Assembly: GCA_051294905.1 (NCBI GenBank)
Contig: CM119372.1
Coordinates: forward strand, 1,986,001-2,050,000
Direction: 5' to 3'
Length of the DNA stretch: 64,000 nt
Origin: Botryllus schlosseri
Lineage: Eukaryota
Shown here: positions 3,471 through 32,174 of the stretch, one piece after another
Numbering within the stretch: position 1 is the stretch's first letter
Layout of the letters: each line of letters begins with the position of its first letter
Program-made: the position numbers and the translations under genes
The notes under the pieces: model-generated
What the model saw: the letters and a program-made list of their open reading frames with translations, nothing else
Told to the model about the DNA's origin: nothing
The model's database searches: none

Positions 3471-6400
3471 CCCTATGGGAGCTCAAGACCCACGTTTTTG
3501 GGGGCCTGACGAGGTGCTGTTTCGTTCCTGCCAACGGGTATACGCCCGAAGATGTTTAGTTATTATTTACTGGTCCTACCTTTTCAAGTACACCTCACTC
3601 AGCGAGTCAGCTCTACCGGCAAATCTGATTACGTGAGCAGACAGAAGATAAAAATTGATAACAATATATATGCGATTCCCGATCATACTGACCGATTCAG
3701 CCATGAATTCTAGAAATTTCCTGCGCTTCGCGCGCTTAGGCGACAAAAGCTGATTCACTAAACAAACTCCCAACGAATATGATAAATAGCGGTAAACAGG
3801 GTATCGCCGGAGGGGGGGGGGCTGGGGGGCGAAGCCTCCCATAAGTTCGGTCTATACCCCTATGGGGGCCCAAGACAAAGTTTTTTTGGGGGGCCTGACG
3901 AAGTGCTGTGACGGCCCTGGTTGTATACACCACATGCGCATTTACACTATAATAACAACGGTGCACCGCCGATTTGATCAACTTTTCAAAACGATTGGAC
4001 ACGTTACCTAGCCAAGGTAGATGTAAAAATGCCGGGCATTTGTCTGGTCCATAATTGGGAGGTCCATCCGAACGTTTTAATACTCTTGCGATGGAGCATT
4101 TCAATATATGCTCAGGATAGCCATTTTTTGAGAGGATAGAATGGATCTTATCCAATTCACGTGGCAATTTTTCTGGCGAACAGATGCGCAAGGCCCGTTG
4201 AACCAGAGTTGATGTTAGGTTGAGTTTTCGCCGCTTCGGGCAAAAAGAATCCCAACGGGTATAATGGCCAGTGAACGTCGGCTTTCTATACACTGACGTC
4301 GAAAACATTTTTCCAGATCTCTCAACCAACACGTCTAAAAATGGAAGTGCCAAATCAGTTTCTTTCTCCACAGTAAATTGTAGAGCTGGGTGGAGACAAT
4401 TCAATTTAAAAAAAAACATATTACACTCTCGCTCATTATTGAGAGCAAAAAAGGTGTCATCGACATATCTATGGTAAAGGAGAGGTTTTGGGACGTTTGC
4501 AAACATTTTCTCTTCATGGTACCCCACAAATATATCTGCCAAACTAGGGCCCAAGGGAGAACCCATGGCAATCCCACCGATTTGCGTCTTCAGTGTGCCG
4601 TTAACTCTTGAAAAGAGGCACCCGAAAAGTATTCCAGTTGAATAAATGTTTTACTGCAATGGATGTTGTATTGAAAGTATCTTTCGTTGTAGCCTACTAC
4701 AACAAAATTTAATTGTTGCTACCATTATGCGTGATATAAGTAATGGATTTCATCATAGGTCCAGATATCGTTAAAATATAGTTTTTTCATGTAAAAAGTT
4801 GTCAGTTTTTAAGTCAAAAAGTTTTTTCAGGCCAAACTACTTCGTAAGAACAGACAGTTCCAACCAGAAATGAAGATAAGTAGTACAATTCTGACATTAT
4901 GTGAGAAAAAACCTAATTTACATACACGAGTGCAAAATTTTGTAAAAATGAAGTTTTTTTAAGGTAAAGAATGTCGACATTTTGCATTTTTAGTTCAAAA
5001 TCTTCCGTTTTACGTATAAAATAAATCGCCCTACTCATAACGTTATAAGCACCACTGTCGTATCCAATAATAATAATCTTATTCTGGCCAAAGTCTTGCC
5101 AATAATTAAATACACAGTTGTCTGGTTAAAGATGCCGTCATTCCTATTCTCGACAACCGAATTTTATCCAATTCCACCATCTAGTCTAGTTCATGTCAAA
5201 ACGGACGTCGACACATTGTGAGAAGCGTTCAGTTGATGATCTCCCAATTAAACAGGAGTTCTTAAACTTTTATGCTCGCGGACCCCTTCCCGTTTCGTGG
5301 GCGGTTGCGGACTTAAATAGAAAAAGGTCATGACATCAATCACAACTCTCTTCTGGCTATTCCATGTCAATCATCAGCGAACTAATGACTATAAGACAGA
5401 TTAGTCATAGTCCCACTTACGGCGTCATTAGGTTACCGAAGAACAATCTGGTTTTGTAGTTGCTTGATGATGCTGTTCATCATTTTCCTTTCACCGTGGA
5501 CTTCAGGTTAAGAACCCCCCGCAATAAAATATTTCGCACTAATGGAATGTATCCTGTATCGCTAAATATGAAACATTATTCTAGGACAGACCTGGTCAAA
5601 GTGCGGCCCGCGGAGCCATTCTGAGTGGCCCGCGAAGATTTGCTTTGAATTCAAAACATAACATCTACTGGCCTACTTGGAATGTTGCTGCGTGAGCCAA
5701 AACCACAGGCTGTATAAATCGGCACGGAAATTCGTTTGCTTTCCATCCTGTTCATTAATATGCCGTCACTACGCAGCCTGCTAACGCGCATGAGTAATCC
5801 AGATTCAAAATAAAGTCAATGCAGCAAAGTATACATAAACTAGTAAAGTCACAAGAAGTGAAGCTTTCCATATAGTTTAGTTCAAACTTTCTTTGTTGCC
5901 ATTATCACTTTACGCATTATACGGTCTGTGGTTCGAATTGTTACGATATATACGTTTCCAAATCCCTAATTCGTAAAACGAGTCAATCAGTGCTCGTGAT
6001 TACTATGAGTCACTTCACCATCACCCATAAACAGGCCATGTTATTTTTGACATTTCGGGAAAATGCCAAAACGGCACAAAATTTAAAATTTAAAATGCCA
6101 GAAATAAGGCTTTTTGAAAATATTGATATTTATGAAAGTTTTGGATAAAAATGTTAACAAGTATTGAAATGAGTTTGCATGAAGCGATAAAACAAGTGTG
6201 TAACCATGGTGTCCTATATGTTACAAGCAAATTATTGATTTTTAGACCGCTATTCAAAATGTTGGTTGGTTGTACCAAGTTTGCAATGCCAATTAGCATG
6301 TGACTGTTTGTTACATTGCTGCTTTACCACCAAAATCTGGTTTGAAGGACTTATCAGTTGATTTTTATATCAACCTAGCATACTTTGGATAGTAGAGAGA

Positions 6401-12950: not shown

Positions 12951-13872
12951 AGGGTAACCAATAATCAAGAAATTAGACACCGTTACGATATACAATTATT
13001 ATATCGTTTATTAGTTGAGTGGTCCTCGGGCGCGATTGAAATGCGAAATATTTCCATTAGTAAAGTCTCAAGCCAAAAAGACCGACTGACTTTGACCTCT
13101 TACCAGGACGGTGAGTGCCACACCCCGACCCCCCCAATTAAAGGGCCCGAGCTCGAAGAGAGCCCAAAATTATTTCAGTCAATGAAAATAAATTAGACAT
13201 TATTCTATGACAATTTACGCAATATGTTTCAATTTTTTTCTCGCGCTGTGCGCGATTTAGCTTTGCCAAATTTTTGATTATTGGGTAGGCCTACCATTAC
13301 CCCACGACCAAATACGTATGATTTGTGAAAAATTGAAATAGGCATTTCGGTGTCGGCCATTACCACACCACGATGTCTAAAGACATATGAATTTTGGGCC
13401 ACTATGGGACTCCGAGAAGTGTGCCAAAAAGATCGTCAGCGAGAAAACCTAAGCCGAAAATGATTGCCTCATGTGGACCGTAAACTTCAATATAAATATG
13501 TCCATTAGGGTTGTTCAGAATTGACCGACTTTTAAAAAAATCATGGTTTATAGTCCGTTTCCCATGCCTTATGCCCTAAAAACATATTCTAGCTACATTT
13601 TTATGTAACTCTTCCCTTGCATCTGTGTGCTGTGCAAGTGTGCATGTTGAGCTGGAAGAAAATCGGCTGAAAATGGGGGATTCCCCTAACATTTGAGTGA
13701 CGCGATGTTACATAGTCTACTAAAATGCCATATATGTCAGGTTTTATGCAGCTGTTGTGGTTTGGGGTGATGGAAAACCTGACTCTAGATATTTTTCTGA
13801 GTTCAGGACATCATTCTATATTGCACACTGCCCTGTAAATCCTCAAACTTACCTAAAACTTAGCATAACTAC

Positions 13873-15160
13873 CAGGGCTTTGGAGCCGGAGCCGGAGCCC
13901 GGAGCCGGAGCCCCGGAGCCGTGCATTTTCACCGGAGCTGGAGCCGGAGCCGGAGCTCCACTTAAAATTCAGCCGGAGCCGGAGCCGGAGCTGGAGCCCG
14001 TTATTTGAGGAGTAGCTCCGGCTCCGACCTATTTCATAAGATGCTATTATATATGCAACAACCACATCTGCTGATTTATCATAATTGAACAGCAGGCCTG
14101 AATTTTATTGCTGTGCACAGCAATGGCATGGAGTAATGTGCGTTCTAGAGTGCAACTACGATGTTGTCGACAATCCACAAGTATTCAATATGACGTCACA
14201 AGCCGGTACGGCGGCCCCTATAGGTATTCGTTGCTACATGGGATGTTACTGACGGCTGACAGACTCTAGATTACTATAGATAACTAATCTATGGGTAGAT
14301 TAGTAATCTATATAGACCAAGAATGGACATTGGCCAACCTTTTCGGCTAAAGGGGCACATGCAATTGGCGAACGAGTGCGCGGTCCACTAGCCACGCCAA
14401 GCGGGTAAAATTTTCCAAGTTAATAAATAAACAAGGTCAATAATATTATTACTGGAGTATTGCGGATCTATTGTATACCGCCCACTAGGCTCAGTTTGCA
14501 AGGACACGGCTATTCGGCGTCTGGCCACATCGATATTGAAGGTCTCCGATAATATGAGACAATCATTTTGTGCCTACATTTCACCGTCGACGATCTTTAT
14601 ATGAGCGCAAACGCGAAAAGACTTTCTCCCGTAATTGTGAATACAGTTGGACTCAATCGGGTAAATTAGGCGTTTTTTCATTTTCAGTAGGGGGTAGGCT
14701 ACCAAGCAAGAAATCGTGTGACAATTAAACACGCGAAGCAGGACTACTATTTTAGTTTATTGTAATGTACTACGATTTCTGAAAATGTGACTGGACCCTG
14801 GATCTGCCAATGCGTCGGAACTGATATTTTAGTCATCAACATCCCAAGTGTCGCAGCCAGAATTGTAATTTTTGGTTGGCATTGCAAGTTCACAATCTGA
14901 TCAATTCATTTTCGATAACATAATAGGAAATTAGCTCGCGGGTCACGCAAAACCCTCTCTCTGGCCACATTTGACCCACGGATTTGCCACCCCTGATATA
15001 GACAGGCCCATTCGATAATTTCAGAGCCGGAGCCGGAGCTGGAGCCGGAGCAGTGGTAATAATGCGGCTCCGGAGCTGGAGCCGGAGCTAATGTATGATA
15101 GAAGAGAGCTCCGGAGCCGGAGCTGGAGCAGTTTAAATTTACGGCTGCTCCATAGCCCTG
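13873..15160. mobile_element. hAT-type MITE with GGAGCC subterminal arrays
   Basis: TSD ATAACTAC at 13865-13872 and 15161-15168; TIR CAGGGCTTTGGAGC / GCTCCATAGCCCTG. Confidence 0.88.
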
Positions 15161-16256
15161 ATAACTACGCACGATTCACCATGTAAAAGAATATAACTGT
15201 AAATGCACCATCCAATTACACAGCGGCATTGTGAATATCTTATCATTCAATGAAACGTAAGAACATAACGGAGAAATGGATACGAAACGAAATAACATAA
15301 CAAAGAAATGGATTAATTTGACAAAAATCCAATACCAATCAGGTGGATGAATGGGTTGATTTTTCGAAATTTTGAAATCTTTGCCGGAGATCTTCCCCGG
15401 CTTGTGTGTTTTCTGTCGTCAGGTATGTATATAGCTTGGTCGGTGTTCATTGAACACTGTTCAATTTCATCATATGGGCTGCTGTATCGTTAACCACCAC
15501 GTTGACCACGTTGACCACCATTCATGATTTCCCGAGCACTCATGAAACGCGGATTAATATGCCATTCTGACAATGGAAGACCCGACTTGATGATGTTCCA
15601 CAGCTATAGCATCAATATGGAACACGATTCTGTCCCGATCAAATACACAATTATAAACATGACGTATGTCTCTGCCATGGAATAGGTTTACAGGAGCTTT
15701 CAGAGTCACAAATGTAGATGATTGATCCGATCTGATCGAAATCCATGCTATGGGGGTGTCAGTTGCCTGTGAATTAAGATATAGATGTGCTCTAGCAGTA
15801 AGTTCGCCTTCGTTACTCCATGCTGCTGCAGGTCGTCTTCTAGTTATGTTCAGTCTTATTTTTGTTGTCTGATTTTAACTTTCAACACTTTATCTTTGCC
15901 GCCCATCGTTCCTAATCTGGGACCTTCCTAACCAGAGTATGAGGTTATGTCTTATAAATTCTTCAATCGTATCAAATGAGCATTTTTGCATCAATTTTCG
16001 AAATAGCTTCAGGGGTTCCTTTCCTATATCACATAGCTTACGCAGTACAGCTACAAAGTCACTTCGTGATGTTGCCACATATATTTGGTCTGGAACAGTT
16101 GAAGCAAACAGTCTTTTGCAGTGGATAAAGAAATTTGAAGGCAGGGCATTTTACCATGATCGGGGGTCCCAGATTAGGAACGATTGGTGCCAACGATAAC
16201 GAATTGTTAGTTAAACTCGGGCAACAAGAAAAAGACTGAACTGCTAGACGCTAGAG

Positions 16257-17498
16257 CAGAGGTCTCAAACTCAAATGTGCTCGCGGGCCAATTTCCTACT
16301 TCTGATGACGCCGCGGGCCGCAGCATCAATGATACGGCTATTCAATGTATGGTTTCCAAGTATAGGCCTTCTTTAACGGGATCTTGCAGACAGGCATTCC
16401 ACAAACATCGTGGAAATGTAATTCACGATTGTAATATTCACGCTTGATACGGAAAAAAATCACATTTTCAAATATTTGATAAACTTGTTTTTGTGCCGGG
16501 CATAATTTGTTAAAATAATGAGTTATAGACATCGTGCGTGGCGATTGATCATGATATCGTAAAACTGTCGGGTTATAATATTGCAGGTATTGGAACTTTG
16601 ACGTGCCACGATTTTATGTAGAATATTTTTAAATCTACTGAAGATTGATCTGATATCAGAATAAATTGGCCAAGATAAGATTCCACAGCATATAGGCCTA
16701 ATTCGACAATACATCTCGTAGCCCCTGATGTGGTTCTTCGTACCCCGATGGTGTCTACGGACCCTGGTTAAGAACCCCTGGAACAGAAATGTCCAATCGC
16801 CAAAGAATGCATTGGTGTTACAATTGTGGAGCATAGGCTACTATTACCTTACTCGCCACAGATAATAACATAGATAAAGAGAACAAAAACACCCAGCATG
16901 TAACCAACTATGCGTCACGGGGGGTCACAGAATGCCAATGGTGCCAGACTGGCTTGATTAGATAGCTATCTATATACCCTACGCAACGCAAACTACGACC
17001 TATTGATGTATTACTATTCCCCATGACAGTTTCATAGATTGTTGCGTCCATAGGATTACCAAGTCCCCGTTGCGAGTCGCAAGCCCTTCTCTGGTTTAAC
17101 GCTGGACCCGACTCAACTCGAGTCGTATTTATTTATTCACCCATAGTCAATCCAAAATAGAGAATAATTTGACGAAAGGTCGCACCAAACCAAATCACAA
17201 TTTTCAGTCAGGAATCATCAACGGGTAATGTTTTATCATCATGAACTAGAAATGTGACGTAAATAGCTGGTCTTCAACCGCAATGGTAGCTTTTAAAAAT
17301 GATGTGACAGTGAGTTTGTTGAGATTTCAGTGATTGCTATGGTAGTTTTAGGGTGAACTTCAGGTTCTTGTATCTAAAAAGATATATAGCGCATGAATAT
17401 TTTGATGAATACTTGAAATTTCAAAATGCCTTCGCGGGCCGCACAAAATGATCTCGCGGGCCGCATGCGGCCCGCGTGCCGCGTGTTTGAGACCTCTG
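16257..17498. mobile_element. hAT-type MITE
   Basis: TSD CGCTAGAG at 16249-16256 and 17499-17506; TIR CAGAGGTCTCAAAC / GTTTGAGACCTCTG. Confidence 0.9.
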
Positions 17499-19915
17499 CG
17501 CTAGAGGTTCACCGCTGCAGCAATTGGCCAAGTAAACATATCTGCACAAGCAGCTGATTCTCCCCGTAGCAGTGATTTTGAAGTTGCACAATAATTATCC
17601 GATCATCCATCTAAATTGACTACTCTGAAAGCCACTGGAAACCAAATAAACGACAGAGATCTTTGCCAGGTTTTTGATCGTTGATTTTCTTGAGACGGCT
17701 TCTTCGTTCACACGGAGGGTATGGTGGAAAAACACCATTGGACGAGTCTTCCAGTTTGAGAATGGCATAGGTATCCGCATTTCATGAGTGCTCGGGAATT
17801 CGTGAATACTGGTCAAGTACTTGAAGATCCAGCAGAATGTATGATGAAATTAAATACCGACCACGCTATATGTACATACCAGATGACAGAAAACAGCAAG
17901 CCTGTCTCTTACAAGCCGTGGAAGATCTCCGACAAATGATTCCAAATTTCGAAAAATCAACCCATCAATAATGTGATTGGTATTGGAATTTTGTCAAAAT
18001 AATCCATTTTTTTGTTATGTTCTTACGTTTCATTGAATAATAAGATAATATTTACAATGTCAGCGTTAGGTAAATTTGAGGATTTCCAACGCAGTGTGCA
18101 ATATGAAAACGGTGTCCTGAAGTCGGAAAAATATCTAGAGTGAGCCAGTGAGGTTCTGCATCACCCCAAACCACAACAGCTGCATAAAACCTGACATATA
18201 TGGCATTTTAGTAGGCTAAGTAAAATCGCGGCACTCAAATTTTTTGGGAATTCCCCATTTTCAGCCGATTTTCTTCCAGCTCTATATGCACACAAATGCA
18301 AGGGATGAGTTACAGAAAAAATTCAGGTAGAAATGTCTCCCTATGCAAGAGACTTGTGTAATTGAATAATATATCCGTATCGGAATAAACCGGAAAACTC
18401 TTTTGAATTCACTAATAAAAACATTCCGTGGTGTATTTCAATATGAATATATCCGAGTTCTGTACCGCCAAAACTTTCTCAAAGACTTGTGTAACCGGCC
18501 AAAACACACGGCTGCTTTTTCTAAATATTAACAGGTAATGTACCCAAGAATTAAATAACTAGCAGGCGAAATTTTCAGTTGGCCAGTGCTTCGCGCCCCC
18601 CTTACATATTAGGTTAGGTACCCCTGGTATATAGAAGATCTAATTAGCAAAGGTTAATTACATCTATCGGACGGCCAATTGATTCCATTCATGAACAAGT
18701 GGTTAAATATCACAACTTGTAAAATCTTACTGAAAAAAATCCATTCATACCTATGATTTCCATCAAATTCATTGTCCCTCCTAACAACGCTCATCTGCGT
18801 GTTAATCTGGTTCTGAAAGTAACAAAATTCATTATGTAGCGAAGAAAATGACAAATCAAGTAAGACTGGGAAGAATTGAGCACTAGGATTCACGTATCAC
18901 TTTCGAGTACTGTAATTTTACGCTCGCTGTCAGAGTTGGTTCATCAACAAGAATTATAGTTTCGATACTATTTTCCACTGTGGAAGTCTTGTAACCTCGA
19001 TTGGTCGTATTGCAGCATACAAAACATGTAATACAAATGTACGCACGTTAGCGGAAATGACATATCTGTGACGCTGGGATAACCCACAGCATTGCAACAA
19101 AGTGCAAGGAAATAGCCAATTATCTTTAATGGGATGTAGAACTGGCGTTTATTCATTGTGGTCGCATAAAAGGTACATATTTAAACTTTCCGCATCTTTC
19201 AAACTGTTATGACACCATAATGAGTGACTTTAACTAGTTGCCATATTTTGAGACCCGAAAAAGAGGACACTTTCAAAAATCCTGAAAGCTCCAGAAAACT
19301 AGTGATTTAAAAAAATTCTCCACCGATAGTACTGTGTTGACTAAAAAAATGGTCGTCACTTTGACTCGACTCCCGTTTTACCCGATTTTTTTTTACGAAA
19401 CTCTGACGCTCGTTGCGACGAGGTCGATGTTTTGATCGCATTTTAATACTTTTTCGAGAAAAGATGACAAATTCCCAAAAAGTAGAACATTTAGGAGTCC
19501 CCCGAGGCCACTTTCAATTTATTGAAAAAAGAGGAGGTATCCGTATGGTAACCCTACTTTAATCCTCGACTCAAAGTCTAATGCTTGATTCACAATCGAA
19601 TGACTCTGGTACTCGACGGCCCTAGTCGTGAGTTACCATTGCCGACGTGTCCGCGTATAGCTTGTCGGAGACTGCATGTCCACAATGAGAGGCGGCGATA
19701 TGACTTGGCCTATTCTGTTTCTCCGTAGGCCGATGATTCTCTGCTCTACGCATCCTGCCGAAAGCCTTGCTTCCGCGTCGTGATCCCAGCATTCATCAAT
19801 CGTGTCGCATAGCGTCACGTTGTCCTGACGTGTTCAAAATCGCATTAAATTTGTGTGCAGAGAATCAATCCTGATTTTACAATTTTTTGTTGTGATACTA
19901 TTGAGCTGTTTGAGT

Positions 19916-20780
19916 CAGTGGTTTTCAACCTTTTTGTCTTCGCAGACCCCTTTCGGAACGTCACGGACCCCGCGGACCCCACGAAGTTTTACTTCAACTT
20001 TAGCTCAATCATTGTGCAATCGTCATCTCCGTCTTGTGCAAATGATTACTGTAGGCATAGTGATAAACAGTAACAAAATTACTTTTCTTGAAAATAAGAT
20101 CATACTATTCATGTAGAACTAGGGTTGACTTCTAGTATTTCAAATTTCTGCAACTGCATTTCTTGAAATATACGTGGTCGTGTCTGGAAAATCCGCACCT
20201 TCGATTTGATGTGAACGAGTGCCGAAAATCCATTCCCACAATGGCCACAAATATATGTGGTGGCGAATGTAATAATAGCACATAACGCTTCCGACGACGC
20301 ATATGGGTATAATCGCAACAAATATGGCACCAAAATTGACTAACAATTTTTTTTAATGAATATATAACGTCAAGCCTGTTTTTTTTCTATCTAGCATTCT
20401 AGCAGCTTATCTTGAAGTTATCATGGAAAAATGGTTATGTATATCACAGGAGAAAAACGATTTTTGTAAACATTTCGAAGTCGCTGCGATTGACCTATGA
20501 CCTAACTCATCCAACTTTTTTTCACAATTTCCAACAAAACATGTCTAAACATCAAAATGTTTGTATCAGTAGGCTATTGCCAATTAAAATGCGTCTGCAC
20601 ATTGTAGGATATTTCATTTCAGATGGCCATTCTGTTAATGTGAGCTCTGGAGTTTTACTAGTAATGCAGTGAAACTGCCTCGTGATTTTCTGAATTTAAA
20701 ACAAAATTAGGTTATCAATTATTTTGAGGCTTCGCGGACCCCCTGAAAATGCTTCGCGCGCCCCCGGTTGAGAACCGCTG
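19916..20780. mobile_element. hAT-type MITE in an ACVR2-like intron
   Basis: TSD GTTTGAGT / GTTTAAGT (7/8); TIR CAGTGGTTTTCAACC / GGTTGAGAACCGCTG. Confidence 0.8.
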
Positions 20781-20834
20781 GTTTAAGTCTTGGAATGTGA
20801 AAGACGGGGGGAATACTCGAGAAATTATGGCGTA

Positions 20835-21259
20835 AGAGTTTCTTGGAGGTACAATTGAATAAAAAATGTGTATTGACATAAACCTGAATATTCTGGCACT
20901 TATCAGGGGTAATCGTTAGCAACTTGCAGAGAATTTTGAGAGAATAATGAATATGTTCATGAATGTTATTTTCAATTCACTATTAATTACTGACGAGGGT
21001 CCGCTGAAAATATCCAGGGTTATTTTAGTATGAATGCACTATTGAATTGTATATTAAAGTTCAAATATTGAAATATTCGAGGTAAACATTGTTTTTCTAT
21101 GCTAGTGAATTCATATTCGATGATACGATTGTAGATGTACAACTTCTTTTTCAATTCTCTACTATAGTTGCTGGCAATCACCCCTGACGGGTGTCAGCCG
21201 AAAATATTTGGGTGATATTTCAATACGAATATACTATTCAATTGTATGCTAAAGTTCTG

Positions 21260-21262
<3 letters not shown>
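20835..21262. repeat. Penelope pseudo-LTR remnants with degenerate hammerhead cores
   Basis: 21130-21262 is closely similar to 25925-26060. Further degenerate units occur at about 20990 (+) and 20880-20915 (-). Confidence 0.6.

Positions 21263-21291
<29 letters not shown>
21260..21291. repeat. (TAC)n microsatellite
   Basis: About 10 perfect TAC units. Confidence 0.9.
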
Positions 21292-23456
21292 ATTCTTTTG
21301 TCGAAATAAGTTATAAACACGCGTTCCACCCGAGACAAAAGCAGAGTTTGCCCCGAGTAATTTGTTCGTAAGTGATTACGCATGACACGTTCACTCGACG
21401 GTTCTTAGCTCCATCATACAAAACAAGTCCTGACAAAAGGCACGAACAAAGCTATCGAGCCGTGAATTCGTTCAAGTTGACTTGACAAACGGATGTCGAG
21501 GAAGTTATTGAACAGTGGCACGAGCAACATCCGAGATCAAATTGCGCGCCGAGCGCACCAACGTATATTGCAAACTTGCCAGCCTCAAATACAAAAATCG
21601 ACAAGCTACTAGCGTCATGCACCCAACCGCCGTGGCGAGTTTACTGCCGGCCCGAAAAATATATCACAATTTTTTTTCTCAATTCCGTAATTTAAGAAGT
21701 TGGACACTGGCCCACTAATTAGAGAAATGAAACATCAAATATTAAATTAATTAGCAGTTTGGAACGTATTTTTGGCATGGTGTCTCAATATACAGTTCGT
21801 GTGAAGCATACACAGACTTTTAAACAAACCACGTTACATTCCAACAATGGAATTAAGCGACACTCGGCAGTATAATAGAGGCTATAGCAAAATGCAACAG
21901 CAAAAAGCAAATTTGATTTACTTCAATTGATACCAAACAAGCACAATCAACTAAACGGTCATTAACAGGATTTCACGATCTTCGCGTTGCAGAAACTTGA
22001 ACAGAACCACGTGTAAATATCTAACATCATCATTAAATGAAGTTTCCAATATTAGCCAACATTCGAGCTGCATACATGAGTCGAAATTATATTTAGGGTT
22101 AATTTTCATTCTTGAAGGTTCACCAGAATTTGTTTGTGATTTGCTACCCCTGCTTTGTGAGTAAGTCATTCACATATTGGCACAGAATTGAATAAAATCT
22201 ACCTAAATCTATATTTTAATATACCCCATAGGGACCTTAATACGAGCCAGACTATCAGATCCATTTATACATAGATTTAACACGATCAATGTATTAAAAT
22301 TTAGAATATTGTCCGTTTTCAAAATATCCCTCTTCTCCTCCATTTTGTTTACCTCTCTCGCCTTTTGCCAGTCAGAGAGGTCTAAAAGGTTGAGAACCAC
22401 TGTGTTGCACTAGAAATATGTCGTTTCTGCTTGGGCACCTACGATGACTGCTCATCGCAAAATTCAACTTACAGCGAATTTTCATTTCCATGTACTGTGC
22501 TAAGACAAATTGCAGCACTCCAAGCAAAGAAGACCATTTCGACACACCCTATTGGACTTACCCTTACACCCATCTCTAATAGCGGGACGCAGTTTCATTC
22601 TCACCACGTGTTCCTGCATGAAGTCCGCGGACGGGTTAGGACCTCATTCTGCTTCGAAAGGCATTTTTAATTCTCCACACTCTGTGAAAATATTTGACTT
22701 TTACGCATTGGTGTGACGGCACAAAACAGGGTTGTAACCAAGTCACAAGGTTAGAGTCAATCTTATTTATATAATATTGACTCGTAGTACAAATCTAGAC
22801 ATGTCACAGAATATAACATATCTGTGAAATCGTTCTCGACCCACAGCATTGTCACAAAGTGCAATGATATAGGTATGGTCGAAAAAGCACCAAATTACGA
22901 TCTAGAACTAACATGATATTCTTTGTGGTCGCATAAAAGGTACATATTTCAACTTCGCACATCTTTCATACTGCCATGACGGACTAGTGATACTCAAAGC
23001 TTTATACTCGATTCCGGATGAAATCCCTCAGCCCAGCCGTAGTCTTTACAACCCTGACAAAAAGTATGCTACTGTACCCGCATATGCCGTGCATTTTACC
23101 ATGACTTCCAAGGTAACAAGGCCAAAGGCGTACATGTCGATGCGTAGAAATGCGTCTTTTTGAAAGCTGATCGCGCCTTCCAACACTTTAGGAGCCACAT
23201 ATCGAAAAGCGCCCACCTGCAGATACACATACATAGCTAAACATTTTTACAAATCAGACTACAATTACTTACAATTACAAGTACTGAGCTCTCAAAAACT
23301 TTGGGACAGATTCACAACTAAAGTCATGTTCAGTTCACATCAAATCAACTAAGAATTTGAATTATAGCCACACGCAGTTTCTTTGCTTCAAATTTCCGGT
23401 AGATTAGAATCAGAATTACTGAATTAATTGAAACTTGAAAATGAACGTATGTTATG

Positions 23457-23622
23457 TAGGGTTGCATTTAAACAAATATATTTTCAATTGTCAATGCCGC
23501 TTCACTATGACGTCACAATTGACTATTGGTGACGCCATGGCTTCAAAAAAACATGTCGTATACAAGGGCCTTGTTTTAAACATGTTTGTTTTTAAGTGAT
23601 TTTGGTTTTAAATGCAACCCTC
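23457..23622. mobile_element. 166-bp hAT-type MITE upstream of the peptide gene
   Basis: TSD ATGTTATG at 23449-23456 and 23623-23630; TIR TAGGGTTGCATTTAAA / TTTAAATGCAACCCTC. Confidence 0.85.
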
Positions 23623-23772
23623 ATGTTATGATAATCGTCGAAAATACTTCTGTAGGCATAATTGCATTATGCATCAAAATATGACAATATGGTGCCGTAA
23701 GTCCGGATAGACCCGTCGTCAAGTGTAGGCCCCATGTATAATTTCCGCTGATAATAATTCCGGCGCAATGAC

Positions 23773-23780
23773 TATATAAA
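23773..23780 (+). promoter_or_regulatory. TATA box of the peptide-precursor gene
   Basis: TATATAAA about 60 nt upstream of a putative 5'UTR intron donor (GTGAGA, 23839) whose acceptor TTTTACGCAG ends at 23907, 7 nt before the ATG. Confidence 0.6.
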
Positions 23781-23914
23781 GAGCGAGTCATATCGGCACA
23801 GATTCGATCGAGAGCTACTATAGCACTGGAACGACACTGTGAGAATGGATTGCGAATTACGCACCTTGTTCAAGGTGGTATGTTGAGTCTCATCTCGTTT
23901 TACGCAGATTCATC

Positions 23915-24184
23915 ATGCAGCTGAACACCGCATTGATACTTCTCGTTGTCGGCAGTCTTGTCCTACAGACTGACGCCTGGCACAGCACACGCTCGCGTAG
24001 GTCGTACCCTCAGTACCCTGGTGTCGGGGACCGCGGCTACGCGATCCGCTCGCGTAGGTCGTACCCTCAGTACCCTGGTGTCGGGGACCGCGGCTACGCG
24101 ATTCGCTCGCGTAGGTCGTACCCTCAGTACCCTGGTGTCGGGGACCGCGGCTATTACGATGTCGATGAGGACCATAAGAACTAA
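23915..24184 (+). CDS. Secreted multi-copy peptide precursor (signal peptide + 3 x RSRR-SYPQYPGVGDRGY)
   Basis: 89-aa ORF with ATCATG start context, hydrophobic LILLVVGSLVL and a TDA|W signal-cleavage-like site. Three 57-nt repeats start at 23990, 24047 and 24104. Acidic tail; GTAAGT donor directly after the stop. Confidence 0.8.
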   Translation: MQLNTALILLVVGSLVLQTDAWHSTRSRRSYPQYPGVGDRGYAIRSRRSYPQYPGVGDRGYAIRSRRSYPQYPGVGDRGYYDVDEDHKN

Positions 24185-24849
24185 GTAAGTCTTTTTCTAT
24201 GATGAAATAGTTATAATGAACCACCTGCCACCGATTTCAGTAGTGAGCTGAGATATATCATGGGTTGGCAACATATGACCCGCGACCGGATTTGGAGCGG
24301 CCCGCAGATAGTTTGAGAGTCTTGCATGGTAATGTGACCTGCGTCCACAGTCTGTCGCAATCTCTCACTGCTTGTTTACTATTAACAACATTACCAAGAC
24401 AAAGCTGCGTACCAATATAACTGACGTTCACGTGCAGTCTTAGGGTCCGACATGCGGCCAGAGTTTAAAGAATTTGTTGACAACTTTGATTGATCATGAC
24501 CAGAGATCTTTCATTGACTTCAGCAGCTATTGAAGTTCATTACGGCAATTAATTCATATTAAAATATTGAAATCGCCCAAACGCACTAAACTAAAAGACG
24601 CACATGATTTCAAATTGGTATTTCTTCACTGGCAATTTAAAGTCTCATGGTATACATGGCCTAAAGCTGTATATGTCGTCTTGGTGCGTCGCGGCGCGGT
24701 AATAACCGAAGCCGAAATGCTCATTTGTACAACTAATGCGTATTTTTTATTTTTTATTTTTTTTGGGGGTGAGTACCCAATAAGGCAGATAACTGGCAAC
24801 ATAAAATCGCGACTCGTTCCTTAAATTCACACTTTTGTTGAATTGTATA

Positions 24850-26075
24850 TTCATATCGTGTGTCCGTCAAACCATTGTTGTACCAACGATATGTAGACGA
24901 TACTTTTGTCATATTCAGGAATGAGTTGGACTGTGATCAATTTCCCATTCACTTAAACTCGCTTCACCCGGCTCTGCGATTCACAATTGAAAAAGAACGA
25001 AATAACTCATTGTCATTTTAGACCTTTTAGTCGAAAAGCATGATACCAATAAATTTGAAACATCCATCTTCAGGAAACCGACATTCACTGGCCAATACGT
25101 TCGTTGGAATTCATTTAGTCCAAGACGCAGAAAAATCAAGCTCACAGACCCCCTCGTGCATATAGAGCGTTGATGATATGATCGGGTAATAAACTGACCT
25201 TAGAACTTGACAAGATCCGCAAAATCTTACTTGATAACGGTTACCCTGAACATGTCATCAACCGCGGCATAGAGAGGACAGTAACGCTATTCAACGCAGA
25301 AAAGTCAACAGAGCCTACCGAACGAACAACCAAAGATGTTTACATCCATCTACCTCGGTTAGGCCCTAGTTCTACCCGCTTTGAAAAGCAATTGATTTCA
25401 GCGGTCAATAAGTGTTACGACACAGTGAAGACCAACGTTATTTTCACGATACCGCAACTGCTCCCTGCAACTCGTAAAGACGTGCTTCCCGCACTTCGAC
25501 AAAGCAATGTATAGTTTACGAATTTAAGTGTCACTGTGATTGTGGCTACGTGGGAAGAACGTCAAAGCGCTTGCAGGAACGCATAAATCAGCATGTCCTT
25601 GGATTCATTAGAGCACGCTCGGTGAAAAGCTCACCCTTAACTCATCCGCTCAAGATTGATGCGGAACAATCAAAGGCCATAGATTCTGCAATTGGCAGAC
25701 AATTGTTGGTTAATCCCGCATATGTGCGAAAAATTATCGAGACGACAGATTTCGCATAGTCGGAAAGGGTCGTTCACACTTTCATTTGTGTGCTTGGAGT
25801 CGACTTATATAAAAATACACCAGCCAAGGCTGTGTCAACAAAAAGAGTGAGTGCATCATCTAAAAATAGTACATTGAACGCTCTCGTATTCAGTATTTCA
25901 TGGTGGTGACGTCATATTTTGTGCTACGATTGTTGATATAAGCTGTTCTTTTCAATTCTCTACTGGTAGCTGACGATTACCCCTGACGAGTGTCAGCCGA
26001 AAATATTCGGGTTCATTTCAATATGAATATACTATTCAATTGTATATTGAAGTTCTGTACCTCCAAGAAGCTGGT
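24850..26075 (+). mobile_element. Decayed Penelope-like retroelement (RT C-terminal part, GIY-YIG, pLTR)
   Basis: Frameshifted PLLYQRYVDDTF, FRKPTFTGQY, NGYPEH, YEFKCHCDCGYVGRTSKRL; 3' hammerhead motif. Confidence 0.88.
25979..26012 (+). ncRNA. Minimal type I hammerhead ribozyme (Penelope pLTR)
   Basis: ACCC-CTGACGA-G-TGTCAGC-C-GAAA-ATAT-TC-GGGT: intact core, ACCC/GGGT stem I, palindromic AATATT stem III. Confidence 0.75.
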
Positions 26076-27679
26076 TTGTTGAATTCTGCGTTAGTTAGCT
26101 ATAATAAAAAGGTAACTCTCCGGCTCAGCTCCCGAAATAGCCACCGGTCGTCTCAGTCGAATTTTACTCTATCTTTAACCAAAATTCTCAAAAAAGAGAA
26201 CATTTGGGCGTCCTCCGAGGTCAAAGTCAAAAAAGAGGACAAATCCTCCTAAAAGAGGACGCATGGTAACACTACTTAAACTACCGGCACGTGAAACATA
26301 AGTTCCTGGGAGTCAGCATATGCAAGCATCGGATTTTTTGATCATCCATCCGCTATACAGGCCTAAATTTCATGATTTCATATTTGTTAAAAAAAATCAG
26401 CATAATCGTAGCCATTGACGTCAGATCATTCATGGATTTGCGTAATCTAACATAACTAAAGCTTGAAATCTACCCTTCCCCCCGCCCCAGTATGGAGTTG
26501 AGTTTTTCTTGCACTGTACATTGCACAAGTACATTCACACCCGTGTACCACCCCGGATATATGTGTAAATGGGTATGAATATACATCCTTTAGTACACCG
26601 AAACCAGAACCCACCTTTAACTTACACCGCGGTATAAATCGAACACAACATTGTAATCCAAATTATGTTTGCCCATCATTACGTAGGACTTGGAACCGTG
26701 ATATAATTCTGATTAGGTTATGTTTTCGTGTACACTCTTAGGGTGTGAGTGGGCACTTATTTCGCTAAAAGTTTGGGTTCAGCTGAGCTGCTATCCATTT
26801 CGTTTCGAAAATCCATGACTTCTAACAGTTTAAATTTCAATCAAACAAAGATCTAATTAATATATCCACCTCTTATGGATCGCACGATGTAAATCTTTTA
26901 TTGGTTCGGGTAAATGGTATAGGCCTACATTCAGTAGCATAAATATACTGGATTTACTGACCACTCATATTTTCTCATTTTCAGAGTCTTAAGACCAGAG
27001 TCAACGGCAAAGTGAAAAGCACGTATAAAATAAAAGTGCCCAAAACCAGATATCTCGAGCAGTATTGCATATCCGAGTCATTGTGCCCATTACTCGTCAG
27101 TATAGTAATCAGAGGATAAATAAATTAATTGGTATTGCTAGTCAGCTACGCTACTTTGTAGACAGTAGTGCTCGCTCTTGCCTCCCGACAGGGATACCAT
27201 ATTTTAAGATCCGAAGTCTTGATCGTACCCGGTCGGATTTATTAAGGCTCGGTGCGTTATACAAAGGGCATCATTCTCAAAAGTTGTACAGTACAGTGCC
27301 GTTTCGAAATTGACAAGCAATGCGCTGCAGGATACAACATCTAGTTCAAAATATGTTGTGGAGAATAACCCGAGCTATCAGTATAAGTAACAGTTTATTA
27401 ATATTTTCATCATTTCAAAACACCACAAAACTGCGATACAATGTGAAGATAGGAAGGTGTCGAGACGAGTTGGAGTAGCAAGCGTGACGGGAGTGTTATA
27501 ACGGAGAATTGGCAATCCGAAATAACGCCAAATTCATTTGACATGAATTAAAATAAAGTATCGTCGGTGGATATTTCGCGATGACCGATACAATGAAAAA
27601 CGTTTTGATTTGACAGATTTTGTCGAATGTTAGTTTGCAATGAGAACTCAGGGATATATAGAACTATTGTTCTACTATC

Positions 27680-28117
27680 CAGTGGTCGGGAACCTTTTTC
27701 GACTGAAGAGCCATACTAGCCCAATATTTCCAATTGTAACTCCCAAAGAGCCATACATGTCAATCAACTGTTACGTCACAATTGAAAATTCGTGACGTAT
27801 TGGTAGCACTAATATATGGGATTCGTAGTATATGCGCCATAATTATGTGCCGTGCCCACATGCATAAGTGGAACCATACATGAGGATTTTCAAATGGGGG
27901 GGGGGGGTACGAACCCTCAACCCTGGTTACCCCACTGTCTTAACCTCTAAAAGACATGTTTATGCTGTCACGAGAATATTTATTCGGGCCGTCATGAAAA
28001 TTTACCAACAAGTTGCAGCAATAGTGAATTAAGTGCAAAATTAAAATTTGTCAAAGAGCCATATCTTATACCCAAAAGAACCAGAAATGGCTCGCGAGCC
28101 ATAGGTTCCGACCACTG
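27680..28117. mobile_element. hAT-type MITE (short member of the 35877-37600 family)
   Basis: TIR CAGTGGTCGGGAACC / GGTTCCGACCACTG; flanks share TACTAT. Confidence 0.75.
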
Positions 28118-31100
28118 TACTATACATTCATACGTCCTTACTACACCATCTACGGCGAGGCCATTTTTCTTCATCGCCCCCCGTACCGTCCCCTTCCCCC
28201 CGAGCTTTTCCGCCCCTTCAAAATCTAAATCGTCCGCTGGGGGCGCTGGAGACAAGGTTAAGTACGAACCACTGCTGTAATGCCAAGCGCTATTCCATTC
28301 TCTTGACCGATAACCACGCAAATAGCTGAGGAATGTAGCTAATTTTTGTCTGGAACTTGCATATATCAATTCGGTATCTTGCCCGTCCCTGCCCTAGCAG
28401 TTCACCTCAGTTTATTATTAAATCGCTATCTAATCAATCCACCACAAGATTCCGATCCAATGAAAAGATAGGAAGGTGTCGAAATGACTTGGAGTAGTCT
28501 TTGAAATCAGACACCCACCTTGGCCTCGGCGGAGTAAAGAAGAGTCATGCACACTGTATGGAAAGTAGCAATAGAAGATAATAAAGACAAACAACAAATG
28601 AGGTGTCATATGATGGTAGGCCAGGTCGATATATCGGATCGTGGTCCAGCAATCTCGGGCTCTCTGACTTATATTTATTCAATAGAGCCTGCTTGTATTT
28701 CGATTTGAATGTTGACATGCTCGTCGACTGGCGGATAGCAAGCGATATACTGTTCCACAGTCCAGGTCCGGCATATTTGATAGAGCGAAGATCTTTTAGG
28801 TCTACCGTATGGCAATTGTACGACGTGGCCGCGCGTGTGTCGTTTTATGCCCTTTTGATTCCGAGGTAAAGAAGTCATTTGAAATATTCGGGGCAAAAAC
28901 CGCAGTGGAACTGACGCATAAACTTGGCAATTTCCCGTTTCCGAATCTTTTTAGCTGCGACTTGTTGGTTGGACGGACAACCAGGCCCTAGCTATGATAC
29001 GGCGTAGCATGTAACCGCATGCAGTATTAAAGCAGTAGATTTCGGCTTGCACAATTTAGTCGTCATGTGGTTAAATACTTCAAAAGATAACGATATATAG
29101 CACAAAAAATCGACAAGAAAGGTGGACATAGAATACGAAAATAGGCAAAAACAAAGAGAAGCCACAAAAATGACAATAAATTTAAAAATACATTTGACAT
29201 ACGACAGGTTACTAGCTTTCTGAGTCGCGATCCATAATTCCAATATCGAAAACTGTAATCCGGTAAAATGTAACAATCAAAGTATTTTGTACTGATTGTG
29301 ATTCTGTTGAACTGACAAGTTTCATAAGAGTCATACAAAGCGGTTGTTACAGCATTGAGATACTCAAATATGCAGTGTTACGAAGGAGATTTCATGCCAT
29401 TCAAACGTAAAAATGAATACACATTACAACATTTATTGCAACTGGATCAACATAGTCCATTGATCTTAGGTATGAAGGCTTTTTGAATCAAGATAGTTGT
29501 CTTGTGAATGTACCAGACCGGTTGTAACATCAGTCGAATGCAAGGTACTGGTGTAAGAATGAGAGTCGTTGAGAATGACATTGTTAGACGTAATAAAACC
29601 ACATCAGATGCTGTTACAAGTTGGATTTACAAAACAAATGGTGTTGCAAGTTGCATTCATTACATACTCGATTGCAAACCTGACTGAAACGGGTCTTTAT
29701 CAGTAACCATAATTGACACGATTATCAAAGTGATTTGATCACCAGAATCACCGAACGTATCCGATCCCGACACACAAATAACATACTAAGAAGAACAAAC
29801 ACCTTAGCCAAAATGCAACATCTTGCCAACTAGACCACCCTCGACGTGCATTAAATGAGAAAATAAATGAAAATATGAAGAACATTGGAAACCATTCAAG
29901 GTTACGGCATCGCATGAACTGCAAAGCTACAATCATTGTCGCATTATACATGAAATTTAGGAGAAATCTTGGGACATGACACTCCGGAAACAGTCCTCAT
30001 TCGAGTATAATTTCACAACTGCATTCATTGCAGTAAAGAATTTATCAACTCGAAGACTTTTCGTGTGCCCCTTATCGAGAGTTAACGGCATAATAACAAG
30101 CATACAGAAGGAGATTCAAACTAAAACCAAATTGGCAAAAGTATGACGTAATAATACAATAATAAAAAATTAACGCTAGGCAAAGTCAGCTGTACCGATA
30201 GTTATAACAAGAGACGAGAGAAAATCAGATTATACAATAATGCACGGAAGACAACACACAGACAAATAGCGGTATATATCAATGGGATATTTTGAGAATA
30301 TATAGAAACTCTTTCTGCCGACATTCGATACTCGAGAATGAAAATCTCGATTGTCTTTTCCACTGTGGATGGCTGTGAGCCTCAATTGGGCATATCGCAG
30401 CATACGAAACACGTAGCACAAAGCAACGTTCGTTAGTAAAAATCAAGTATCTGTGAACCTACAGCATTGTCGCAGTATGCAATGAAGTGGGCTTGTCCGA
30501 ACAAATGCCAAATTACAGACACGTGGAGTAGAAATGGCGCTATATTTTTGTGGGCACGCAAAAGGTTCACATTTCAACTTTCCACATCTTCCACTTGAAG
30601 CATAATACTCAATTCAAAATTGAATTACATGGACACTCAATTTTGCCCAGCCCTGCTGACCGCCACTAAACAACGAACGCGTTATATCTCACGCTCAAAT
30701 ATACACACCCAAGCAGTGTCTAGAATATGTTTTTGAGGCATAAGGCATGGGAAACGGACTGAAAACCACGGCTTTTTCAAAGTCGGTCAATTATTTACAA
30801 CCCTAATGTCTAATTGGCTATAGGTGCTTAAATAACTCGTGGCGAAATATCCTGTCGTGGCAATCCGAACAAATAACATCCCTCAGCGAAAAATCAATTG
30901 CCACTGAAGAAATACCAATTTTGAATCGTGTTCTTCTTTTAGTTAAGTATGTTTATGCTATTTCAAAATCTTTTGCCTATATACTATATTAACATGTAAC
31001 GATGGGGGAGGGGGGGGCGGAGCCACCAATAAAAGTTAGGTTTATCACCCTATGGGGGGAGGCAAATACCAACGCTTTTGGGGGAGGCTGGCGAAGTGCT

Positions 31101-32174
31101 GTTAAGGCCCTGCCTCTCACCCATTGTTTTTATAACCGTCCTTAAAACATGCTGGCCGCATTTGTACTGCTTTCTTCTCAGATTGCTGGGACGGAACTGT
31201 GCTATTTCGACGACCGGAGATATCAATATCCATGGTTTTGGCCAACCAACGACGATCTTGGGCAAGGTTTTATAACTGCAGATCTTGTTGGCACCTATCC
31301 TTGCCCAGCTGTGTGATGGCCAAAACTTCTTGTCTCCATGTGTTCCGACACTGAAGGGATTGGCTTCGAAATACCTGTATCACATGGTCCCGGACCCGTT
31401 AGTTTCACACCCCCACAGTGAAGCATACCAACGGTATCCGACGGTCTTTTCCAGACAAACCAATGTCGGACAAATCTTGTCATGAATTTAAACCAATTTG
31501 TTTAATACGAAGGTCGACAGATTTTCATGATCAAGCCATTTTGTAGCAACGGCTTTTCTGCGTGTCTCGCTTATTGGCTATAGGCCTAGTACAAAATACA
31601 CTGACCTCGAACACGCACAAACTATCCACAAATAATCGCGGCAAGCGCGAAGAATTCTTTTCGTTGCAAGAAATTCAACAAATATGACATACATATCAAA
31701 AGATCACTCTGGTGCCGTTGCGGCCAATACTTTAAGAATCCCTTTGTTTACACCATGAATCTATCAATCAGAACCGTATCTTCCGCGAAGTAACCAAAAG
31801 ACACGGAGAAAGTAAAGCGCCGACCGATATGGATGATTGTCTCAAACTGTGCAATAACTAAATTGGGACACACAAATAAGTAAATGCTGTTCAATCGCTG
31901 ACGGGTGGGATGAAATAATCGACCGACACACAGAAAATGGAAATTCTCAATTCTGAGGAAGGTTATGTTTTGGTGTATACCACCGTTTGATTGCCAATGC
32001 ACATTACACAGCACTTATTGAAAACCATGACCTCGACCCCGCACGTATCCATAGTGCTTAGAACTCGAAATATGTATGTTTAAGATTGGGCTTGATGTAA
32101 TGAGCAGGACGCAATGGAGCCGCCGCTTCCCGCGTAATGTAATTTAATCTGATAATGAGTAACGCAAGATAACA

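What the first reader, a model, noticed from the sequence alone, without database searches (positions are those of the whole stretch)
13104..31112. 18-kb nested transposon that carries host genes as cargo
Seen: a short element with the same termini as 869-3919 begins at 13104 and ends at 31112, with a 7/8 TSD (CCTCTTAC/CCTCTCAC). Its body breaks at 13505 and resumes at 30806, at the point that is contiguous in the copy at about 2390-2620. The intervening 17.3 kb is bounded by about 85-bp TIRs with 6/8 matching flanks. Inside are a long foldback, the last three ACVR2-like exons with their introns, and the complete peptide-precursor gene. Inference: a Pack-type or composite hAT element captured genomic DNA and moved it, which would explain why the receptor lacks its 5' exons. 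Pack-elements are established in plants; a gene-sized example in an animal would be notable.
Basis: partly seen in the sequence, partly recalled or inferred. Interest (0 to 1): 0.85.

Follow-up and report, generated by a model that had tools for sequence, protein, structure and literature searches.

The report
Permuted host-gene duplicate inside a transposon
A 17.3-kb non-autonomous hAT-type transposon, nested in an older repeat, carries a rearranged 12.4-kb copy of a nearby receptor and peptide gene region, and the block order points to a circular or template-switch copying event rather than capture by the transposon itself.

Summary
The nested structure is real. A high-copy repeat is split at 13505|30806 by a 17.3-kb element (13506-30805). 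That element has TAGGG...CCCTA termini and an 8-bp duplication (ATGTCCAT/ATGTCTAA). Six of seven other copies of the repeat have that octamer once.

The element belongs to a hAT-like, non-autonomous family with TIRs of at least 360 bp. The "foldback" is its own arms. It is intact apart from nested repeats and a 12.4-kb insert at 18325|30720.

The insert copies a 19-kb region about 124 kb away on the same contig (non-coding K2P 0.18). There the ACVR2-like gene is complete. The copy is circularly permuted: the donor order B-X-A becomes A-B. It is joined at 23425|23426, and X, which holds the receptor's true last exon, is missing.

The receptor fragment is decayed, with an in-frame stop and APE changed to APK. 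The peptide gene is intact, and RNA reads show it spliced.

The outer termini exist, but their "TSD" and flanks recur in copies elsewhere, so they record no local event. No second cargo-bearing copy exists, so movement with cargo is unproven.

The likeliest origin is a circular-intermediate or template-switch duplication that landed in the transposon.

The parts
12984..13103 (+). Left flank of the larger amplified composite repeat that contains the outer hAT-like element
   Evidence: 39 of 39 scored non-self hits start at 12983-12996 and cross 13104. The same flank and the CCTCTTAC octamer are present in 5 of 5 copies examined.
13104..13505 (+). Left part of the outer hAT-like element (CAGGAC... 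terminus). Its last 8 bases (13498-13505, ATGTCCAT) are the left target-site duplication of the inner element.
   Evidence: 869-1104 aligns to 13104-13339 from the first base. The family has 4151 candidates. TSD.
13506..13866 (+). Inner element (TE2): left terminus and long TIR
   Evidence: 918 candidates in the genome; the listed copies start at query base 1-6. Pairs with 30805-30720 and with 18336-18066.
13867..15168 (.). Younger high-copy repeat nested in the TE2 left arm
   Evidence: 39 non-self hits at 93-94% identity, 3094 candidates. TE2 copies L053-L055 are contiguous across this gap.
15169..18325 (+). TE2 internal region and the inner part of its right arm. 16249-17499 has almost no match in the three full copies and may be another nested repeat.
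   Evidence: Collinear with L053, L054 and L055. Inverted matches 15284-15731 to 18031-17597 and 13582-13856 to 18336-18066.
18326..23425 (-). Cargo block A: copy of the donor C2:2,145,048 down to about 2,140,606. It holds a decayed ACVR2-like fragment with exons at about 23219-23058, 22679-22563 (in-frame stop at 22646-22644) and 19830-19663.
   Evidence: BLAST blocks at 72-86% identity. Junction alignments. Exons.
23426..30719 (+). Cargo block B: copy of the donor C2:2,159,553 down to about 2,146,630. Clear homology ends at 30640; the last ~80 bp align only weakly.
   Evidence: Collinear BLAST blocks. Junction alignments.
23457..23621 (.). MITE-like insertion that arrived after the duplication. 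TAGGGTTGCA... ends, flanked by ATGTTATG on both sides; absent from the donor.
   Evidence: Three-way alignment. 38 of 40 matches to query 177-336 are copies of this repeat.
23915..24184 (+). Peptide-precursor CDS (89 aa: signal peptide plus three identical SYPQYPGVGD-containing units). The stop is at 24182-24184, followed by a 3'-UTR intron at 24185-26984.
   Evidence: ORF. 34 RNA reads of run X18 join 24184 to 26985 with GT..AG ends. Splice-site sequences.
24869..25756 (+). Penelope-like retroelement fragment inside the peptide gene's intron
   Evidence: 68% match to 48027-47306. Weak GIY-YIG hit, E 0.0027, at 25478-25756. The Penelope label is recalled from the motif.
30720..30805 (+). TE2 terminal 86 bp of the right TIR
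   Evidence: Aligns to the last 86 bases of L053, L054 and L055, directly continuing the position matched by 18325. Inverted match to 13506-13592.
30806..31112 (+). Right part of the outer hAT-like element. Its first 8 bases (ATGTCTAA) are the right TSD of TE2. It ends ...GGCCCTG.
   Evidence: 27 of 39 non-self hits stop at 31112-31117.
31113..31151 (+). Right flank of the amplified composite repeat
   Evidence: 9 of 39 hits run through to about 31151. The flank is conserved in 5 of 5 copies examined.

Best explanation
The proposed history has three steps.

1. Shown: a non-autonomous hAT-type element (TE2, originally about 4-5 kb with TIRs of at least 360 bp) inserted into one copy of an older composite repeat and made an 8-bp duplication.

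2. Structure shown, mechanism inferred: a 19-kb stretch lying about 124 kb away on the same chromosome was copied as a circle, or by replication that switched template from one end of the stretch to the other. The stretch holds the 3' part of a complete ACVR2-like receptor gene and the neighbouring peptide-precursor gene. Nearly one full turn of it was joined by short microhomologies into a break 86 bp from the right end of TE2. The copy is 12.4 kb today and lacks a 1.6-kb piece, X. TE2's long inverted arms are a plausible fragile acceptor site. TE2 was the landing site, not the agent.

3. Shown: the receptor fragment then decayed, further repeats inserted, and the peptide gene copy stayed intact and is transcribed and spliced.

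Whether TE2 ever moved after receiving the cargo is open. In-situ acquisition is favoured because it needs one event fewer.
For: TE2 insertion:
- TIR match 86.7% over 90 bp, E 5.5e-23.
- 8-bp TSD matching at 6 of 8 positions. 6 of 7 other copies of the outer repeat have the octamer once, and the two halves abut in 7 of 7.
- 4 of 4 complete family copies have 8-bp TSDs (7/8, 8/8, 8/8, 6/8).

TE2 is a single element: 18325 and 30720 map to adjacent positions in the 3 of 3 full copies fetched.

Donor and permutation:
- Window 18326-23301 matches C2:2,145,048 down to 2,140,877, and 23623-30640 matches 2,159,529 down to 2,146,689. Both blocks are in the same orientation with their order swapped.
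- The A|B joint is at 23425|23426, next to an AATT repeat.
- Donor homology starts at 18326, exactly where the TE2 match ends, with TAG-type microhomology.
- The donor gene is complete and X holds its last exon.
- The unique cargo pieces have only two copies in the genome.
- No TE2 sequence occurs in 50 kb around the donor.

Later history:
- The receptor fragment has an in-frame stop and APE changed to APK.
- 34 RNA reads span the GT..AG splice 24184>26985.

Precedent: the same order flip with microhomology junctions is taken as the mark of circular intermediates in human and cattle duplications (PMC7450558, abstract and Discussion read; PMC7188851, abstract read).
Against: - No circle or intermediate is observed, and a serial template switch gives the same product.
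- The 1.6-kb X is missing, so a simple cut-and-paste of a whole circle does not fit without loss or incomplete copying.
- All three donor breakpoints lie in or within about 120 bp of copies of one AT-rich satellite-like repeat. This hints at a more specific mechanism that I did not resolve.
- Dating does not favour in-situ capture. The TE2 arms are 0.076 and 0.079 (K2P) from their family consensus. Half the cargo-donor non-coding distance is 0.090. The difference is about one standard error, and both estimates are biased low.
- The junctions rest on one assembly. Among the pieces listed, an X1 contig ends exactly at 23425 and none is shown crossing that joint.
Confidence: 0.55

Rival explanations
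1. Pack-type transposon. TE2 acquired the host DNA at another site, possibly by the same circular or template-switch route. It then transposed to the present site as a 14-17-kb unit and made the 8-bp duplication.
For: - It meets the structural definition of a Pack-TYPE element (PMC8903248, Introduction read): non-autonomous, with TIRs and gene-derived DNA between them.
- The TSD flanks the whole unit.
- The termini are intact.
- Half the cargo-donor distance (0.090) is not smaller than the TE2-to-consensus distance (0.077), as capture before the last jump would predict.
Against: - Only one cargo-bearing copy exists, and the unique cargo pieces occur only here and at the donor.
- The dating difference is within error.
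- It needs one more event than in-situ capture.
- Nothing shows that an element of this size was ever mobilised.
Confidence: 0.3
2. Composite insertion made by alternative (reversed-ends) hAT transposition with re-replication, as described for maize Ac/fAc. Two transposon ends facing each other across X at the donor were excised and inserted here. Each dragged a re-replicated copy of its flank, and the flanks were then joined by end joining.
For: The overall layout matches the published composite insertions (PMC4270019, abstract and passages read):
- transposon termini on the outside with an 8-bp TSD;
- two donor flanks inside, joined at a short microhomology;
- the inter-transposon segment lost;
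- a target on the same chromosome, within the 13 kb-1.7 Mb range reported there.
Against: - The two TE2 parts are exact complements of one element, broken at a single point. Two independent elements would not give this.
- No TE2 sequence lies in the 50 kb around the donor.
- X contains a functional exon of the donor gene with no transposon ends beside it.
Confidence: 0.05
3. Assembly artefact, or a chain of ordinary events: an inverted segmental duplication followed by local rearrangements and deletions that only mimic a permutation inside a transposon.
For: - Junction-spanning reads could not be inspected.
- One X1 contig ends exactly at 23425.
Against: - Contigs of two runs from a separate study (X4, X6) carry unique cargo stretches with no differences, for example 29070-29428 and 29479-29939. 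An X1 contig bridges 30719|30720.
- All junctions are clean, with no loss of TE2 bases.
- A chain of events would need at least three steps with end points that coincide with the TE2 break.
Confidence: 0.07

Closest known systems
Segmental duplications made through circular DNA intermediates: the cattle colour-sidedness translocations and the human cSDPs (PMC7450558; PMC7188851)
   Same: - Two blocks keep their orientation but swap order (A-B becomes B-A).
- Only microhomology is present at the fusion and integration points.
- The location is non-tandem.
- There are two copies in the genome.
   Different: - The acceptor is the subterminal region of a DNA transposon with intact ends.
- About 1.6 kb of the circle is missing.
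- The copy is small (12.4 kb today) and lies about 124 kb from the donor on the same chromosome.
- The organism is probably a tunicate. The closest named homologue of the receptor is from Styela clava.
Pack-TYPE / Pack-MULE transposons of plants (PMC8903248) and transduplication in animals (Turmoil-1 of C. elegans, PMC2572040, abstract seen in the search listing)
   Same: A non-autonomous class II element with TIRs and a TSD that holds gene-derived DNA, with the parent gene elsewhere in the genome.
   Different: - There is a single copy with no sign of mobilisation after capture.
- The cargo is very large and includes a whole expressed gene plus intergenic DNA.
- The cargo is circularly permuted and sits at one point inside an otherwise complete element, rather than replacing its interior.
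Composite insertions from reversed-ends Ac/fAc transposition with re-replication in maize (PMC4270019)
   Same: - hAT ends on the outside with an 8-bp TSD.
- The two donor flanks lie inside, joined by about 4 bp of microhomology.
- The inter-element segment is lost.
- The target is linked to the donor.
   Different: The donor shows no transposon ends, and the two transposon parts here are halves of one element broken at a single position.

Membership tests
hAT superfamily, non-autonomous element (TE2) | 8-bp target-site duplication | tested here: met
   Window copy matches at 6 of 8. 4 of 4 complete family copies give 7/8, 8/8, 8/8 and 6/8. Paralogous empty sites are present in 6 of 7 copies of the outer repeat.
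hAT superfamily, non-autonomous element (TE2) | Terminal inverted repeats shared by a family of copies | tested here: met
   918 candidates. The listed copies begin at the same terminal base. TIRs are at least 350 bp in L053-L055.
hAT superfamily, non-autonomous element (TE2) | Relation to a hAT transposase | tested here: inconclusive
   1 of 123 ORFs scanned hit Dimer_Tnp_hAT (E 4.5e-6, 26.8 bits against a cut-off of 21.4). It lies inside the 6-kb family copy L054 and could belong to a nested element. No hit in the window copy.
Pack-TYPE transposon | Non-autonomous class II element with DNA captured from coding genes between its TIRs | tested here: met
   Receptor exons and the peptide gene lie between the TIRs, and the parent locus was identified. 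No transposase ORF is present.
Pack-TYPE transposon | Mobilisation of the captured DNA (transduplication) | tested here: inconclusive
   The unique cargo pieces occur only here and at the donor. The TSD fits either order of events, and dating cannot separate them.
Circular-intermediate segmental duplication | Order flip of two blocks that keep the same relative orientation | tested here: met
   Window A then B. The donor, read in the same orientation, is B-X-A.
Circular-intermediate segmental duplication | Microhomology or short indels, and no long homology, at the fusion and integration junctions | tested here: met
   AATT at 23425|23426. TAG-type microhomology at 18325|18326. Caveat: a shared satellite-like repeat lies at or near all three donor breakpoints.
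Circular-intermediate segmental duplication | Existence of the circle itself | not testable with these tools
   The event is old (non-coding K2P 0.18), so only its product can be seen.
Composite insertion by reversed-ends hAT transposition | Donor carries two transposon ends in reversed orientation flanking the lost segment | tested here: not met
   No TE2 match in the 50 kb around the donor. The two TE2 parts are adjacent positions of one element.
Activin type II receptor gene (the cargo fragment) | Complete coding capacity: ligand-binding domain, TM segment and full kinase | tested here: not met
   Only aa ~395-544 of a 665-aa homologue are present, with an in-frame stop and APE changed to APK. 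The donor locus covers aa 61-658.

The most novel reading that the evidence does not exclude
This locus may be a preserved snapshot of how Pack-type DNA transposons load cargo. A circular or template-switched copy of neighbouring genes was spliced by microhomology into the subterminal region of a non-autonomous hAT element. The element then transposed with a 12-kb payload that includes a still-expressed gene. That would make it a gene-sized Pack-hAT in a chordate relative.
Probability: 0.25. Interest if true: 0.8.

Novelty: new variant of a known kind. Interest (0 to 1): 0.55.

Why it matters
How class II transposons acquire host genes is still unsettled, and examples in animals are few. Here every junction can be read to the base:
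- The transposon is intact.
- The cargo sits at a single point 86 bp from one end.
- The donor is identified.
- The cargo is circularly permuted.

That links two literatures, Pack-type capture and circular-intermediate duplication. It suggests a concrete, testable route in which circular or template-switched DNA lands in a transposon's fragile inverted arms.

The locus also shows a duplicated peptide-precursor gene that has diverged sharply from its parent and is still expressed. It sits beside a receptor fragment that has decayed.

Tried and rejected
- Helitron or another nested transposon as carrier of the 12.4 kb: rejected. Donor homology starts at the very junction (18326), and I saw no terminal structure at the cargo ends.
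- Tandem duplication plus a macrotransposon made of two TE2 copies: rejected. The cargo abuts internal TE2 positions, not termini.
- Tyrosine-recombinase or other enzyme in the cargo: the Pfam scan of 139 ORFs of at least 44 aa in 18164-30733 gave only three weak hits, Pkinase, GIY-YIG and a low-complexity spidroin match.
- Homologues of the peptide precursor: 1148 candidates, none at E<=0.001.
- Earlier notes of this scan: nothing held (one search was a word-count slip).
- Dating the order of events: not decisive.
- Sequencing runs: no RNA holder was listed by the index.
- Expression of the receptor fragment: laying run X18 showed no listed splice joint among its exons, which says nothing either way.
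- Empty-site or cargo-free allele: none appeared among the 15 joints listed, with 247 more not shown.
- Synteny in related species: not possible. The genome has no relatives in the held collection.


Full report
SETTING

The window is C2:1,986,001-2,050,000 of a 495.5-Mb, 219-contig assembly. The closest named relative of its receptor gene is an activin receptor type-2B-like protein of the ascidian Styela clava (72% over the query exon). The genome is therefore probably a tunicate's.

OBSERVATION: THE INNER ELEMENT

- A self-comparison gives an inverted match of 13503-13592 with 30808-30720 (86.7% over 90 bp, E 5.5e-23).
- The same comparison gives 13582-13856 with 18336-18066 (81.8%) and 15284-15731 with 18031-17597 (69.5%).
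- The left arm is continuous. Its right-hand counterpart is cut in two, at 18325 and 30720.
- A genome search with 13505-13866 finds 918 candidates. The listed copies (81-88% identical) begin at query base 1-6 and share the terminus TAGGGTTGTTCAGAATTGA.
- Four of four complete copies have 8-bp flanking duplications: 7/8, 8/8, 8/8 and 6/8.
- In the three full copies fetched (3.9, 5.0 and 6.0 kb), the positions matched by window 18325 and 30720 are adjacent.
- The inner element (TE2, 13506-30805) is therefore one intact long-TIR element.
- A Pfam scan of 123 ORFs from the window's TE2 body (13506-18325), the 869-3919 element and the three full family copies gave one hit. It is a Dimer_Tnp_hAT remnant in the 6-kb copy (E 4.5e-6).
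- Together with the 8-bp TSD, this makes TE2 a non-autonomous hAT-type element. The transposase link is not secure.

THE NESTED INSERTION IS REAL

- In 7 of 7 other copies of the surrounding repeat, the sequences matching ...13504 and 30806... abut.
- Six of those seven show ...ATATAAAT ATGTC(C/T/A)AA TTGTCCATAGG... once. The window has ATGTCCAT [TE2] ATGTCTAA.
- These copies act as paralogous empty sites.

THE OUTER ELEMENT

- The termini at 13104 and 31112 align base for base with those of 869-3919. That copy has a perfect GTTGTATA duplication at 861-868 and 3920-3927.
- However, CCTCTTAC and the sequence beyond it recur on other contigs, in 5 of 5 left and 5 of 5 right flanks examined.
- All 39 scored non-self hits cross 13104.
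- On the right side, 27 of 39 stop at 31112-31117, 9 run on to about 31151, and 3 belong to another repeat.
- The hAT-like unit was therefore already sitting in a larger repeat when that composite was amplified. The 7/8 "TSD" is inherited and is not a local event.

THE CARGO

- Receptor exons lie on the minus strand at about 23219-23058, 22679-22563 and 19830-19663. They correspond to aa 395-544 of a 665-aa homologue.
- Searching the genome with two of the exons finds one paralogue each, at C2:2,140,925-2,141,122 (80%) and 2,143,424-2,143,609 (82%).
- That locus holds a complete gene: exons for aa 61-658 at 2,130,067-2,146,180 on the plus strand.
- DNA comparison of the window with 50 kb around the paralogue shows two collinear, inverted blocks:
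  - A: window 18326-23301 matches 2,145,048 down to 2,140,877.
  - B: window 23623-30640 matches 2,159,529 down to 2,146,689.
- Read in window orientation, the donor is B-X-A, while the window is A-B. This is a circular permutation.
- Refining the joint places it at 23425|23426, beside an AATT repeat. A MITE-like repeat at 23457-23621, flanked by ATGTTATG and absent from the donor, had hidden it.
- Donor homology starts at 18326, exactly where the TE2 match ends, with TAG-type microhomology.
- At the other end, clear homology stops at 30640. The last ~80 bp before 30720 align only weakly.
- X (donor 2,145,049 to about 2,146,630) is missing from the window and contains the receptor's true last exon, aa 607-658.
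- Unique cargo pieces occur only here and at the donor.
- No TE2 sequence lies in the 50 kb around the donor.

STATE OF THE GENES

- The receptor fragment carries an in-frame stop (22646-22644).
- The donor's GTLRYMAPEVLEG reads [13 protein letters not shown] in the window copy. The fragment is decayed.
- The peptide gene (ATG at 23915, stop at 24182-24184) encodes a signal peptide and three identical units.
- Its donor paralogue shares the signal peptide but has a different body.
- In RNA run X18, 34 reads join 24184 to 26985 across GT..AG. The splice sites have consensus sequence.
- This copy is therefore transcribed and spliced. At about 80% identity, donor-derived reads would not pass the 95% filter.

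MECHANISM

- An order flip with microhomology junctions is the accepted signature of a circular intermediate, or of replicative template switching, in the cattle and human cases (PMC7450558, abstract and Discussion; PMC7188851, abstract).
- The product was inserted at one point of TE2 without loss of TE2 bases. TE2 is therefore best seen as the acceptor.
- The layout also resembles the maize composite insertions made by reversed-ends Ac transposition (PMC4270019, passages read). That model needs two separate ends at the donor. Here the two parts are halves of one element, and the donor has none.
- Structurally the element fits the definition of a Pack-TYPE transposon (PMC8903248, Introduction), but mobilisation after capture is not shown.
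- Dating: the TE2 arms are 0.076 and 0.079 (K2P) from a consensus of 19 related arms. The cargo-donor non-coding distance is 0.179 over 3304 aligned sites, or 0.090 per lineage. These values are too close to order the events.

CAVEATS

- All of this rests on one assembly.
- Contigs of two runs from a separate study carry unique cargo stretches without differences. One X1 contig bridges 30719|30720.
- Only a few of about 100,000 pieces are listed. An X1 contig ends exactly at 23425, possibly at an indel in the AATT repeat.
- The three donor breakpoints lie in or within about 120 bp of one satellite-like repeat. I did not explain this.

VERDICT

The "transposon captured and moved genes" reading is only partly supported. 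The new and more interesting fact is that the cargo is a permuted copy of the donor region.

Noticed in passing
window 23915-24184 and 26985 onward; donor paralogue near C2:2,159,300: A duplicated peptide-precursor gene. The window copy encodes three identical SYPQYPGVGD-containing units after a shared signal peptide. The donor copy has a quite different mature region. The window copy is spliced in RNA reads, and no homologue was found in the protein database.
   Followed up: partly
window 869-3919: A 3-kb non-autonomous hAT-like element with a perfect 8-bp duplication, GTTGTATA, at 861-868 and 3920-3927. No Pfam hit in its ORFs.
   Followed up: partly
window 52343-53979: A 1.6-kb stretch that matches its own reverse complement at 89% (self-BLAST). 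This is a large palindrome or a head-to-head repeat pair.
   Followed up: no
window 485-955(-), 3739-4650(-), 25182-25756(+), 47014-48356(-): Several fragments with ORFs carrying a shared YEFKCHCD...YVGRT motif and reverse-transcriptase-like stretches. One gave a weak GIY-YIG Pfam hit (E 0.0027). They look like Penelope-like retroelements; that label is recalled, not tested.
   Followed up: partly
window 13867-15168: A young high-copy repeat, 93-94% identical to the 39 non-self copies scored among 3094 candidates. It is nested in the TE2 left arm.
   Followed up: partly
donor C2:2,140,108-2,140,933, 2,146,263-2,146,585 and 2,159,672-2,159,972: Copies of one AT-rich satellite-like repeat (AATTCTAATTCTAATC-type) lie at or near all three donor breakpoints of the duplication.
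   Followed up: partly
window 23425: A contig of run X1 (23137-23425) ends exactly at the A|B joint. This could be a heterozygous indel in the AATT repeat or a structural variant. It could not be examined further.
   Followed up: no
window 42600-50200 and 62000-63500: A cluster of mutually similar 200-650-bp blocks, for example 44274-44899 with 48459-49112 at 78% and 45960-46365 with 49740-50162 at 81%. This suggests local segmental repeats.
   Followed up: no
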